Positions 4,603 through 16,175 of a stretch of 64,000 nt of DNA are shown here, in pieces. Position 1 is the stretch's first letter. The number at the start of each line of letters is the position of its first letter. The DNA comes from the human T2T-CHM13v2.0 reference genome, Homo sapiens. The DNA is taken from the NCBI RefSeq assembly GCF_009914755.1, contig NC_060926.1. One strand, written 5' to 3'. The notes below the pieces were generated by a model. The model was not told the DNA's origin. It made no database searches and saw only the letters and a list, made by a program, of their open reading frames with translations. The translations under genes were made by a program, and so were the position numbers.

Positions 4603-6139
4603 GAAATAGGCAGCAGTGAGTAATTTATTATTAACTATGCAATTTTTGGCAATTGTGAATAAGCTCTTTTTTATTGTGGTTTTGTAATAATCACTAATGA
4701 ATAATTACTAACATATAACAATGTTGTTGATTTCTGGATGGTAATCTAGTATCTACCAATATTGGTGAGCTACCTAATCACCTTTCCTACCAATATTTTT
4801 ATAGGGTCTCTTTCTTAATAGTAATATTATTTAAAATATTAGTGTGTTCTTAGGGTGACTGCAAAAGAAACTAATGTCTATATAAAATTATATTTTGTTA
4901 AAATACTTTTAAGGACAATATGAAATGACACAGAAAGTTGGGCAACATGTTCTTTCAGAATCATATGGAACTTTTAATGCCCTATCCCTCTTAGTCATTA
5001 TTTATTTGTTTCTTGTTAGGCTTGCTAAATTTTGATGTATTTGAAATTATTTTTCCCATTGCCTTCATATGTGAACATGGACTGTACAGGGGATAGAATT
5101 TTTATATAACATGTATCCTCAAAACCCTGTAGGATTTCTCTATTGAGATCAACTACTCTGACAGCAGATCCTATATTTAATACATAGTGGCGACCCCAGG
5201 GTTTGACTATGGCTGTCCCTGGCTCTTAGCAAACTCTTAGTAAATATTTGTTCAGTCTTCAGTGAAAGACTTGGTATTTCTGCTAGTCCCATGATTAAAA
5301 TTTACTATGGTATGGAGAAGCTATAAGAGAGACAGTTGGCAGGTACCCAAGACATCTTCTAACAACATGGTTCAATAAAGACTTGATAGCTTTGAAATAC
5401 AGTGAAAGTATTGCTGCTGGAGTTTTCAAAAAAAAATAAAGCACATCAAAATGCAAACAAACACAAAAATGCTGGACAAATATTGGCCTGGGTTGGCTGT
5501 GATATTATAAATAAAATTTAAGCAAAGCTATGTACGTTGTTTACACATGCTTCAAGATTCTGTCCAAGCCTATGATTTGATGCTTATCATCACCGAATAT
5601 GTATCATTCTGCTATTGCTAAAGGATTTATTTTATTTCAAAAGAAAATTTTATTCACGTATATTCAGCCCTTATAGTTTGCTTCCTTTGACATATGGCAG
5701 CCTACATACAGCAGCAAGTTTTTATGTTTGATACTGAATTTTTATAAGGATTATAATCTGCTTTTTAAGGTAGTGCATAAGCTTTGGGCTTCACCCCAAA
5801 ATGAAGCTTAATCATATTTAGAACAATGATCTGGATATGAATGAGAATAATTTATACCAAAATGTGTACATTGAAGTTAATAAAATGTATTTGGATATTC
5901 ACATTATATCAGGCTACTCTAAGCAACCTAATATTATAGCTGTTTAGTCAGGACTATATATAGCATAAAATATATTTAATGATTTAAGATCAATCTGACT
6001 AATGACCATGTGTTCTTCTGCTTAGTGTAATTTATTCAGGGTTTCAGAGAGGACTGTGGTTTCTAGAAACAAAATAAAACCAACCAACCAACCAATCAGA
6101 CAAATAAAATCACCTACTCATTGATTTATAAAATTTAAG

Positions 6140-6305: not shown

Positions 6306-6947
6306 AGTTTTATGAAGATGTCACTAAGATGGCAAGTAAACTTGTCTTCAATTTATATGTAATTGAATCTGTTTCTTATTATAGAATCTAAAATCAATTA
6401 TTTATTAACTGCATTTATTGGATTGCTTTGATCCACTTCATAAAAGATATAATGCTAAAGAAATCTCTAAGCTCCTAAACAGCCAAGACTGTGTTTTGCT
6501 AAGAAACCACAGTTCCCTAAACATCATTGAATCCATGGTCCATTTGGATAGAACTTTGCATTTGAAATTGTATTTATTCTATTTACTATCATTGCCCAGT
6601 AAAGACCACATTCTGCTTGAAATTATTATGTTAATCAATATTGTAGATGTTTTCCATCAAATTAAATCCATTTTTGTGTCAGAATTTGAAATTTGTACAT
6701 GAAATCATTTTTCTTCTGTAATTGTAAGAACTGCTTGAGTATCCTCCCTCCCCAGATGGTAGCCTAGAAACCATCTTCTTTGTGTTTGTCTGAGAGTTTG
6801 TCATGGAAATATTATTGATAACATGAATGACTAATAATCATATTCACACATTGTGTCACATGTGTTCAACCTTCATCAACTATTGAAAAATAACCATTTT
6901 CGCTCTTGCTTTATTTGATAAAAGAAATCAAGTTTCGTTTAGAAAAA

Positions 6948-7392
6948 ACAATAGCAAAGACTTGGAACCAACCCAAATGTCCAACAATGACAGACTGGAT
7001 TAAGAAAATGTGGCACATATACACCATGGAATACTATGCAGCCATAAAAAATGAAGAGTTCATGTCGTTTGTAGGGACATGGATGAAGCTGGAAACCATC
7101 ATTCTCAGCAAACTATCGCAAGGACATAAACCCAAACACTGCATGTTCTCACTCATAGGTGGGAATTGAACAATGAGAACACTTGGACACAGGAAGGAGA
7201 GCATCACACACCGGGGCCTGTTGTGGGGTGGGGGGAGGAGGGAAGGATAGCATTAGGAGATATACCTAATGTAAATGACAAGTTAATGGATGCAGCACAC
7301 CAACATGGCACATGTATACATATGTAACAAACCTGTACGTTGTGCACATGTACCCTAAAACTTAAAGTATAATAAAAAAAAGCTGAAAAAAA
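6948..7392 (+). mobile_element. 5'-truncated L1PA (L1PA3/4-like) 3' end: ORF2 C-terminus, 3'UTR and poly(A)
   Basis: ORF 6906-7169 ends TIAKTWNQPKCP...MFSLIGGN*; G-rich 3'UTR; 'taccctaaaacttaaagtataat'; TSD agaaaaaa at 6941-6948 and 7393-7400 after TTT (L1 EN site). Confidence 0.95.
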
Positions 7393-13157: not shown

Positions 13158-13990
<833 letters not shown>

Positions 13991-14974
13991 GTCTTTGCTA
14001 TTGTCAATAGTGGTGCAATAAACATATGTGTGCATGTATCTTTATAGCAGTATGATTTATAATCCTTTGGGTATATACCCAGTAATGGGATGGCTGGGTC
14101 AAATGGTATTTCTAGTTCTAGATCCTTGAGGAATTGCCACACTGTCTTCCACAATGGTTGAACCAGTTTACAGTCCCACCAACAGTGTAAAAGTGTTCCT
14201 ATTTCTCCACATCCTCTCCAGTACCTGTTGCTTCCTGGTTTTTTAATGATCGCCATTCTAACTGGTGTGAGATGGTATCTCATTGTGGTTTTGATTTGCA
14301 TTTCTCTGATGGCCAGTGATGATGAGCATTTTTTCATGTGTTTTTTTGGCTGCATAAATGTCTTCGTTTGAGAAGTGTCTGTTTATATCCTTCGATATAA
14401 ACTTTTTGATGGTGTTGTTTGTTTTTTTCTTGTAAATTTGTTTGAGTTCTTTGTAGATTCTGGATATTAGCCCTTTGTCAGATGAGTAGATTGCAAAAAT
14501 TTTCTCCCATTCTGTAGGTTGCCTGTTCACTCTGATGATAGTTTCTTTTGCTGTGCAGAAGCTCTTTAGTTTAATTAGATCCCATTTGTCAATTCTGGCT
14601 TTTGTTGCCATTGCTTTTGGTGTTTTAGTCATGAAGTCCTTGCCCATGCCTATGTCCTGAATGGTATTGCCTAGGTTCTCTTCTAGGGTTTTTATGGTTT
14701 TAGGTCTAACATGTAAGTCTTTAATCCATCTTGAATTAATTTTTGTATAAGGTGTAAGGAAGGGATCCAGTTTCAGCTTTCTACATATGGCTAGCCAGTT
14801 TTCCCAGCACCATTTATTAAACAGGGAATTGTTTCCCCATTTCTTGTTTTTGTCAGATTTGTCAAAGATCAGATGGTTGTAGATGTGTGGTATTATTTCT
14901 AAGGGCTCTATTCTGTTCCATTGGTCTGTATCTCTGTTTTGGTGCCAGTACCATGCTGTTTTGGTTACTATAGC
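13991..14974 (-). mobile_element. L1PA (about PA4-PA6) ORF2 segment, inverted 5' part of a twin-primed insertion
   Basis: ORFs 14258-14989 and 13987-14355 translate to L1 ORF2p (TAWYW...IFDK...[19 protein letters not shown]...[13 protein letters not shown]), with a frameshift. Confidence 0.95.
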
Positions 14975-15162
14975 AATCCAAATGTCCATCAGTGTTAGAA
15001 CGGATTAAGAAAATGTGGCACATATACACTATGGAATACTATGCAGCCATAAAAAGGATGAGTTCATGTCCTTTGTAGGGACATGGATGAAGCTGGAAAC
15101 CATCATTCTCAGCAAACTATCGCAGGGACAAAAAACCAAACACCACGTGTTCTCACTCATAG
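14974..15162 (+). mobile_element. L1PA ORF2 C-terminal segment (non-inverted part), ending at CTCACTCATAG with no L1 3'UTR
   Basis: 'aaatgtccatc...gattaagaaaatgtggcacatatacactatggaatactatgcagcc...gttctcactcatag'; the normal continuation gtgggaattga (present at 7159) is absent. Confidence 0.95.
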
Positions 15163-16160
15163 AGCTGCCCTGAGGAGTGACAAAGGGCGTGAATTGAGGA
15201 GGCTTGTGAAGAGGACTTGAACACTGTACCAGCTGTATATCCCTGGCTTCCTCCTGAGAGCTCCTGATGGGATATTCTCCATTATTTCTAAGACCACCTG
15301 GAGTTATTAGTCCCTTGAGGACCCCCATAAGATGCTTTATTATCCTTTCCTTTGCTCCCCGGGTGCCTTAACTCAGATCCTCATTCAGTGTGAGATTGGG
15401 AAAACATGCAAGTGCAGGTCTTGTCTTAGGTAGCAATAAAATGCTATTACTAGATCCCTAAATGTAAATGACACAGGCAACTATTTCTTAACATCAATAA
15501 ATCTAATGTCTGTGTAATCAGAAACCAGAGATCTGAACTCTACCTTTGGGCTAACTCAAAATCTGTATCGTTGCAGTCATTAGAGACCAGTTTTTATTCC
15601 TTGCTTTATTGAAGGGACTGCTGTTGATAGTTTTTAATTTTTAAATAATGAGTTTTTCTTTTTAGATATAAGCCATGAGGCAACTTTAAAAGTTTGTTTC
15701 TGAGGAGGTAAGAGTTGAATTTAAAACAACAAATGAAGCCTTTGCATCACTAGCATTCTTTTCCATGTATATTATCCAAAACTGGAATGTTAGAAATATT
15801 TTTGAAAATATTTTTGTAAAAAATATGTATTTCTAAAAAAAAAAGCATCAATGAGAAAGAAATGAATTTATGTAAAATTTTTTTCAAATAAAAGTGTAAA
15901 AATTTTCACCTAGGGTGCACAAATAAAATAATTGTCTGAGAATATGGTCATTTTCAGTAATATTACACTAATAATTTCTAACTGTATCTCTATGTACGGT
16001 TTAAATTTTTATGAACACGAATTCATTATAGAACAAATTACTGCATTTAAGAGAAACATCAAAAGCTGACTGTTTATTTACTTTTACCAGTTATTCTTCC
16101 TCCATGGAAATTATGCTTCTGAATATAGTGAATAAAACCAGAGGTGATTACACTGAAAAA
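15163..16160 (+). other. Non-L1 transduced cargo (putative captured terminal exon/3'UTR) with AATAAA and short A-tail
   Basis: Lies inside the 15-bp TSD aaattgtttgtctac (13976-13990 and 16161-16175); AATAAA at 16131-16136, A-run from 16156. Confidence 0.8.
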
Positions 16161-16175
16161 AAATTGTTTGTCTAC

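What the first reader, a model, noticed from the sequence alone, without database searches (positions are those of the whole stretch)
15144..15173. Junction keeps ORF2p in frame and swaps only its last three residues (SLIGGN* to SLIELP*)
Seen: cac gtg ttc tca ctc ata gag ctg ccc tga reads H-V-F-S-L-I-E-L-P-stop across the junction, the same length as the canonical ...MFSLIGGN* at 7143-7169. Inference: the spliced source RNA could still encode a full-length ORF2p and mobilise itself in cis with a replaced 3'UTR, so it may have been a source element with siblings. A stop at this position could also be chance.
Basis: partly seen in the sequence, partly recalled or inferred. Interest (0 to 1): 0.7.

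Follow-up and report, generated by a model that had tools for sequence, protein, structure and literature searches.

The report
Spliced L1–host exon retrocopy, no siblings
An old, broken LINE-1 copy on chromosome 2 carries a 1-kb piece of chromosome 8, likely joined to it by RNA splicing; the tidy three-residue protein ending at the join is likely chance, more likely than not a later mutation, and no sister copy turned up in this genome.

Summary
The codons are as described: 15144-15173 reads HVFSLIELP-stop, the same length as canonical ...FSLIGGN-stop. They lie in one 2,170-bp insertion (13991-16160; perfect 15-bp TSD, short poly(A), 5' inversion). Its L1 part stops at an AG|GT site inside codon 1273 and continues into a 993-bp cargo, 95% identical to chr8:63.89 Mb, where the match starts at CAG|G and ends at a poly(A) site. 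CpG decay after insertion is the likelier direction (56-81% by my estimates; no outgroup). A stop at that codon follows 4.7% of arbitrary YAG sites, and keeping the frame is automatic because the break lies in the third-last codon. No sibling was found: four searches gave only this copy and the source, plus two chance pattern hits. No sense L1 of matching age lies within 280 kb upstream of the source exon. Published C-terminal tags suggest a tailed ORF2p could still work, so cis mobilisation stays plausible but unshown. What remains is a rare spliced variant of 3' transduction whose source L1 is missing.

The parts
13976..13990 (+). left target-site duplication (15 bp), behind a TATT|AAAT site that fits an L1 endonuclease nick on the bottom strand
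   Evidence: identical to 16161-16175; nick motif YYYY/RR as in PMC4859970 passage
13991..14974 (-). inverted piece of L1 ORF2 (about codons 880-1206), twin-priming type inversion, one frame switch
   Evidence: 95.2% to an L1 on C14; abuts the sense piece with about 10 bases lost; best genome matches 94-95%
14975..15162 (+). sense piece of L1 ORF2 end, stopping at the ATAG|GT site inside codon 1273; one frame switch
   Evidence: an intact L1 end for comparison at 7143-7169
15144..15173 (+). the finding: junction reading HVFSLIELP-stop; junction at 15162|15163; bases 15163 and 15171 differ from the source exon
15163..16155 (+). cargo: 993-bp copy of one contiguous stretch of C8:63,889,820-63,890,811 (likely a terminal exon), AATAAA at 16131
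   Evidence: 49 substitutions in 990 aligned bases, 4.95%; only other match in the genome
16156..16160 (+). remnant poly(A): 5 A plus 3 A of the TSD
   Evidence: absent from the source, which continues T-rich
16161..16175 (+). right target-site duplication

Best explanation
This is a single old L1-made insertion whose template RNA was likely spliced from a cryptic donor in the third-last ORF2 codon to a likely terminal exon on chr8, and whose three-residue ending is likely chance, more probably made by a CpG change after insertion than present in the RNA. Shown: TSD, poly(A) remnant, inversion, cargo source, GT and AG at the two sides of the join, CGA in the source, no sibling. Inferred: an L1 of primate age lay upstream of the chr8 exon as an allele that never fixed (or lies beyond 280 kb); read-through RNA was spliced, which removed the L1 3'UTR; ORF2p ended in a foreign tail, 34 residues as the source stands or 11 if the copy's extra base at about 15182 is ancestral; this protein likely copied its own RNA, with twin priming; the copy then decayed, G to A at 15163 and C to T at 15171.
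For: Perfect 15-bp TSD and A-tail. Cargo matches one other place at 95%. The match begins right after CTGCAG, with no other AG for 28 bases upstream, and ends about 19 bases after AATAAA, before a T-rich stretch. L1 breaks exactly before GT. Source reads G-L-P-R... for 34 residues. Among 7 CG versus TG/CA differences, expected CpG gains are 1.3-3.1, so P(decay) is 0.56-0.81. Null chance of this stop is 4.7%. L1-part divergence to its nearest relative (56 of 1,169) equals cargo divergence (49 of 990; Fisher p=0.92), so both parts are of one age. TAP (530 bp) and FLAG-HA tags on the ORF2p C-terminus, with 3'UTR nt 5818-5953 deleted, had little effect on retrotransposition (PMC2951350). An older L1 copy ends SLISER*, so the last three residues vary among copies (one decayed copy).
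Against: No outgroup was available, so TGA may be ancestral (about 1 in 3); CpG differences split 4 source-CG to 3 copy-CG. The source L1 was not found: in 280 kb upstream the best sense L1 end differs at 109 of 1,168 sites (p=9e-5 against the cargo) and lacks most of ORF1 and ORF2, and the one of matching age is antisense and 5'-truncated. Donor and acceptor share AG|G, and both have CTCACT just upstream, so a microhomology join gives the same sequence. No splice-site scorer or RNA data was available. Tags were added after GGN; they do not test replacing it. Only 16% of trialanine mutants kept wild-type activity overall (10.1101/721357), and the value for residues 1273-1275 could not be seen.
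Confidence: 0.62

Rival explanations
1. One reading: the TGA was already in the template RNA, ORF2p kept its exact length, and the chr8 site later changed to CGA; the source was active in cis.
For: The copy reads a three-residue tail. At near-equilibrium, TG-to-CG gains explain 19-44% of CG/TG differences.
Against: The source has CGA and a different first exon base. The length match needs no selection (4.7%; long tags tolerated). No sibling. Even if TGA is ancestral, nothing shows it mattered.
Confidence: 0.3
2. Trans-splicing: an L1 RNA from another locus was spliced to the chr8 pre-RNA, so no L1 ever lay upstream. This would mirror the 5' exon/L1 chimeras of Law and Burns. It concerns how the join arose, not the stop.
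For: No matching sense L1 in 280 kb. In PMC13174262, 15 of 17 host loci of 5' chimeras lack an intronic L1 and trans-splicing is proposed (passages).
Against: A lost polymorphic L1 explains the absence more simply; non-reference sources of transductions are documented (PMC9311842 Table 4). Sequence beyond 280 kb was not read.
Confidence: 0.2
3. Template switch: reverse transcription began on a chr8 poly(A) RNA and jumped to L1 RNA at short homology (CTCACT...AG|G), with no splicing.
For: Both sides share AG|G and a CTCACT six-mer within 10 bases of the join. Template switching is a listed route to L1 chimeras (PMC13174262 Fig. 7 legend).
Against: The join falls on a GT in L1 and on a YAG with a 28-base AG-free zone in the source, as splicing predicts. 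The homology exists only in unspliced chr8 RNA.
Confidence: 0.1
4. Processed pseudogene moved in trans: a host transcript held a dead L1 fragment as an internal exon spliced to this last exon, and another L1's proteins copied it; the tail was never translated to any effect.
For: The insertion preserves only about 1.2 kb of ORF2, so an intact template is not shown.
Against: It needs a fixed sense L1 of matching age in the locus; none in 280 kb. L1 proteins prefer their own RNA (10.1101/721357 introduction).
Confidence: 0.08

Closest known systems
L1 3' transduction (as reviewed in PMC4859970)
   Same: Non-L1 sequence from another locus with its own AATAAA, carried 3' of L1, with poly(A) and TSD.
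   Different: No L1 3'UTR, no internal poly(A), no source TSD, and no L1 next to the source stretch; the join is at splice-like sites inside ORF2.
Spliced integrated retrotransposed elements, SpIREs (PMC5860796)
   Same: Retrotransposed copy of a likely spliced L1 RNA.
   Different: SpIREs splice within the 5'UTR or 5'UTR/ORF1 and lose promoter or ORF1; here the donor is at the ORF2 end and the acceptor is in host DNA.
5' mRNA/lncRNA-L1 chimeras (PMC13174262)
   Same: Host exon and L1 joined at splice sites in one TPRT insertion of primate age; no source L1 found at the host locus.
   Different: Mirror image: L1 gives the donor and the host the acceptor; that study screened sequence 5' of L1 (section headings and passages seen).
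Twin-primed 5'-inverted L1 insertions
   Same: Inverted upstream piece, small loss at the breakpoint, one TSD pair.
   Different: No difference; this part is ordinary.

Membership tests
L1 TPRT insertion | flanking TSD of 4-20 bp | tested here: met
   15 bp, identical
L1 TPRT insertion | 3' poly(A) not in the source | tested here: met
   A5 plus 3 A of the TSD; source continues T-rich; short
L1 TPRT insertion | YYYY/RR endonuclease site | tested here: met
   bottom strand ATTT/AA at 13975|13976; one purine off consensus
Twin-primed inversion | upstream L1 piece inverted, abutting the sense piece with a small indel | tested here: met
   pieces map to 86-1064 and 1077-1262 of one L1
Canonical 3' transduction | unique sequence from another locus ending at its own poly(A) signal | tested here: met
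Canonical 3' transduction | L1 3'UTR, internal poly(A) and source TSD retained before the cargo | tested here: not met
   L1 stops in codon 1273
Canonical 3' transduction | source L1 directly upstream of the cargo | tested here: not met
   none of matching age and strand in 280 kb of this haplotype
SpIRE | donor and acceptor both within L1 5'UTR or ORF1 | tested here: not met
   donor at ORF2 end, acceptor on chr8
Spliced L1-host chimera | GT donor and AG acceptor exactly at the join | tested here: met
   ATAG|GTGGGA in L1; CTGCAG|G in source; 28-base AG-free zone
Spliced L1-host chimera | RNA evidence that these sites are used | not testable with these tools
   no transcript data; finding's table covers only the chr2 window
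5' exon-L1 chimera (Law and Burns) | host exon lies 5' of L1 | tested here: not met
   host piece is 3'
Active source element with offspring family | two or more insertions sharing the cargo | tested here: not met
   2 matches each (copy, source); 2 extra pattern hits were chance
Active source element with offspring family | intact ORF1 and ORF2 in the template | not testable with these tools
   source L1 not found; copy is truncated and decayed

The most novel reading that the evidence does not exclude
Younger primate L1s carry a usable splice donor in the third-last ORF2 codon that lets an intact element trade its whole 3'UTR for a host terminal exon, possibly by trans-splicing, and stay mobile with a tailed ORF2p. 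This insertion and two unverified junctions at the same site (C11:25.48 Mb, C1:107.70 Mb) would be the 3' mirror of the published 5' exon-L1 chimeras: a route that moves distant exons with no source L1 beside them and so escapes transduction catalogues.
Probability: 0.2. Interest if true: 0.6.

Novelty: new variant of a known kind. Interest (0 to 1): 0.27.

Why it matters
The narrow claim (a length-preserving three-residue swap marking a source element) matters little: the stop is absent from the source exon, the length match is a 1-in-21 event, and there are no siblings. The structure around it is worth a line to an L1 specialist. It appears to be a natural case in which L1 RNA lost its whole 3'UTR and last ORF2 codons by splicing to host sequence and was still retrotransposed. 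It suggests a simple test of whether this donor is used and whether such RNAs move in cis. Pipelines that need a source L1 next to the cargo would miss such events.

Tried and rejected
Siblings: whole cargo (3 candidates scored, 2 matched), source 5' region at E<=1 (2 of 2), last 227 bases at E<=10 (2 of 2) and the junction pattern with 2 mismatches (3 matches, two of them without L1 or cargo homology). The tool warns that it scores only its best candidates, so very short or diverged siblings could be missed. Source L1: 280 kb upstream (14 BLAST rows). The antisense L1 at 63.869-63.871 Mb has the right age (p=0.30) but the wrong strand, is 2.5 kb long and has its own TSD. The sense L1 at 63.849-63.852 Mb is too diverged and internally deleted. 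The best genome-wide match, C14:60.39 Mb, has an ordinary 3' end. Outgroup for CGA/TGA: no paralogue, and the genome tool holds no relatives of this genome. Reverse direction (chr8 from chr2) rejected: TSD and poly(A) are on chr2. Recurrence of the donor: exact-match patterns, read by eye from 12-13 bases. At the donor, 3 of 19 (one more uncertain) and the same 3 of 14 look non-L1, this copy included; the C1 case may be a deletion into the 3'UTR. A stricter pattern gave 1 of 8. Control breakpoints gave 1 of 32 plus 3 apparent fold-backs, 3 of 9 rows, two independent, 1-2 of 20 and 0 of 3. No enrichment is visible; the pools differ in size, and the candidates' flanks were not read. Value for trialanine mutant 1273-1275: not in the three of five text parts read or in the term search; its supplementary table was not available. 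Literature searches and passages of PMC6425141, PMC6681178, PMC9719517, PMC7026601, PMC2896524 and PMC9311842 showed no account of this donor or locus; most subscription papers and three requested papers were not held, so absence from print is not established.

Full report
Observation. Window 15144-15173 reads HVFSLIELP-stop. The short L1 at 6943-7390 ends HCMFSLIGGN-stop, and solved human ORF2p chains end FSLIGGN at residue 1275.

Anatomy. The junction belongs to one insertion, 13991-16160, flanked by an identical 15-bp TSD at 13976-13990 and 16161-16175. From the left: 984 bp of ORF2 on the minus strand, 188 bp of the ORF2 end on the plus strand, 993 bp of non-L1 cargo with AATAAA at 16131, and five A. 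The two L1 pieces map end to end on a related L1 with about ten bases lost, the usual twin-priming inversion (PMC4859970, passages). They cover about codons 880-1272 and each has a frame switch, so the copy is dead and says nothing about whether its template was full length. Its best relatives are 94-95% identical (40 of 8,861 candidates scored). That suggests a mid-age primate L1PA family, roughly 15-25 million years old; the family label and rate are recalled, not from a call.

Source of the cargo. It matches one other place, C8:63,889,821-63,890,812, with 49 substitutions in 990 aligned bases and no internal gap over two bases. On chr8 the match begins right after CTGCAG, with no other AG for 28 bases upstream, and ends about 19 bases past AATAAA before a T-rich stretch. 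In L1 the break falls just before GTGGGA. GT on one side and YAG on the other point to splicing to a terminal exon; the splice consensus is from general knowledge and no scorer was run. Against this, both sides share AG|G and a CTCACT six-mer, so a template switch could leave the same letters. The L1 part and the cargo are equally diverged from their nearest relatives (56 of 1,169 against 49 of 990, p=0.92), which fits one event.

The stop codon. The source differs from the copy at the first exon base (G, not A) and at the stop (CGA, not TGA). Read in the ORF2 frame it gives G-L-P-R... for 34 residues. The copy also has one extra base near 15182; if that is the ancestral state the tail was 11 residues (read from the alignment). 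The direction is not certain. CG versus TG/CA differences number seven, four with CG in the source and three with CG in the copy. Expected CpG gains, from non-CpG transitions in the cargo or from three L1 copies (3 of 527 opportunities), are 1.3-3.1, so a given difference is a decay with probability 0.56-0.81. I take about two to one that the TGA arose after insertion. No paralogue exists to polarise it.

Chance. The break is inside codon 1273, so the frame up to 1272 is kept whatever follows. A stop at exactly the canonical place follows 4.7% of 3,843 YAG sites in the window and 4.7% of 18,086 on chr8; the median tail is 12-13 residues.

Would a tailed ORF2p work? Probably. A 530-bp TAP tag or 72-bp FLAG-HA tag on the C-terminus, with 3'UTR bases 5818-5953 deleted, had little effect on retrotransposition (PMC2951350, passages). 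An older L1 copy on chr8 ends SLISER-stop, one decayed copy. These points keep cis mobilisation plausible and also remove any need for the exact length. Against: tags follow GGN rather than replace it; the C-terminal domain is required (PMC10830420, passages; PMC7617806, passages); and only 16% of trialanine mutants were wild-type-like (10.1101/721357, parts 1, 3 and 4 of 5 read). The value for the last triplet is in a supplement I could not see, and it bears directly on this claim.

Siblings and source element. Three DNA searches gave only the copy and the source. The junction pattern with two mismatches gave the copy and two chance hits. In 280 kb upstream of the acceptor the only L1 end of matching age is antisense, 2.5 kb long and has its own TSD. 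The best sense L1, 38 kb upstream, differs at 109 of 1,168 sites (p=9e-5 against the cargo) and lacks most of both ORFs. So the source L1 was lost as an unfixed allele, lies further away, or never lay in cis. Non-reference sources are documented for recent transductions (PMC9311842, passages and tables). Trans-splicing is proposed for 5' chimeras, where 15 of 17 host loci lack an intronic L1 (PMC13174262, abstract, outline and passages).

Is the donor used recurrently? Exact patterns for L1 ends that turn non-L1 at the donor gave 19 and 14 matches. By eye three look non-L1 in both lists: this copy, C11:25.48 Mb and C1:107.70 Mb, the last possibly a deletion into the 3'UTR. Control positions gave 1 of 32 plus three fold-backs, 3 of 9 (two independent) and 1-2 of 20. 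No enrichment is visible and the candidates' flanks remain unread, so a class is neither shown nor excluded.

Comparison. It works like a 3' transduction but lacks the 3'UTR, internal poly(A), source TSD and adjacent source L1. It is not a SpIRE, whose sites lie in the 5'UTR or ORF1 (PMC5860796, passages). It mirrors the 5' exon-L1 chimeras. Seven literature searches (listings and abstract starts) and passages of six further papers showed no account of this donor or locus. The library lacks most subscription papers, including three I asked for, so I do not claim it is unpublished.

Verdict. Observation confirmed; interpretation partly supported. Spliced template about 0.85; same-length stop without functional meaning about 0.9; stop younger than the insertion about 0.67; sibling family not found. 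New variant of a known kind, interest 0.27.

Noticed in passing
G000:C8:63,849,260-63,852,060 (L007/L006): A 2.8-kb sense L1 with a 5'UTR joined directly to mid-ORF2 at an AG, a 48-bp further deletion and a 16-bp TSD; an internally deleted or spliced retrocopy, 38 kb upstream of the cargo source.
   Followed up: partly
G000:C11:25,480,004-25,480,038 (+): L1 ORF2 end turns non-L1 exactly at the same ATAG site; the next 13 bases resemble the start of an antisense Alu arm (resemblance recalled), a possible second splice chimera.
   Followed up: no
G000:C1:107,695,640-107,695,675 (-): Another L1 end that departs at the ATAG site; the first bases also match the L1 3'UTR, so it may be a deletion.
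   Followed up: no
G000:C23:134,071,502 (+) and 134,097,468 (-): Two identical L1 ends that appear to jump from the ATAG site into the G-rich 3'UTR, in inverted orientation 26 kb apart; likely one internal deletion or splice, duplicated.
   Followed up: no
G000:C9:24,750,462; C10:73,312,632; C14:37,062,538: Three L1 ends that appear to fold back into the reverse complement just after CATGTT near the ORF2 end.
   Followed up: no
matches; L006:1991-2026: Many L1 copies have ATAAGTG where others have ATAGGTG at codon 1273; the G form gives the AG|GT context used here, so the donor may be better in one group of subfamilies.
   Followed up: no
window 6943-7390: Ordinary short 5'-truncated L1 end with intact GGN-stop, 3'UTR and A-rich tail.
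   Followed up: partly
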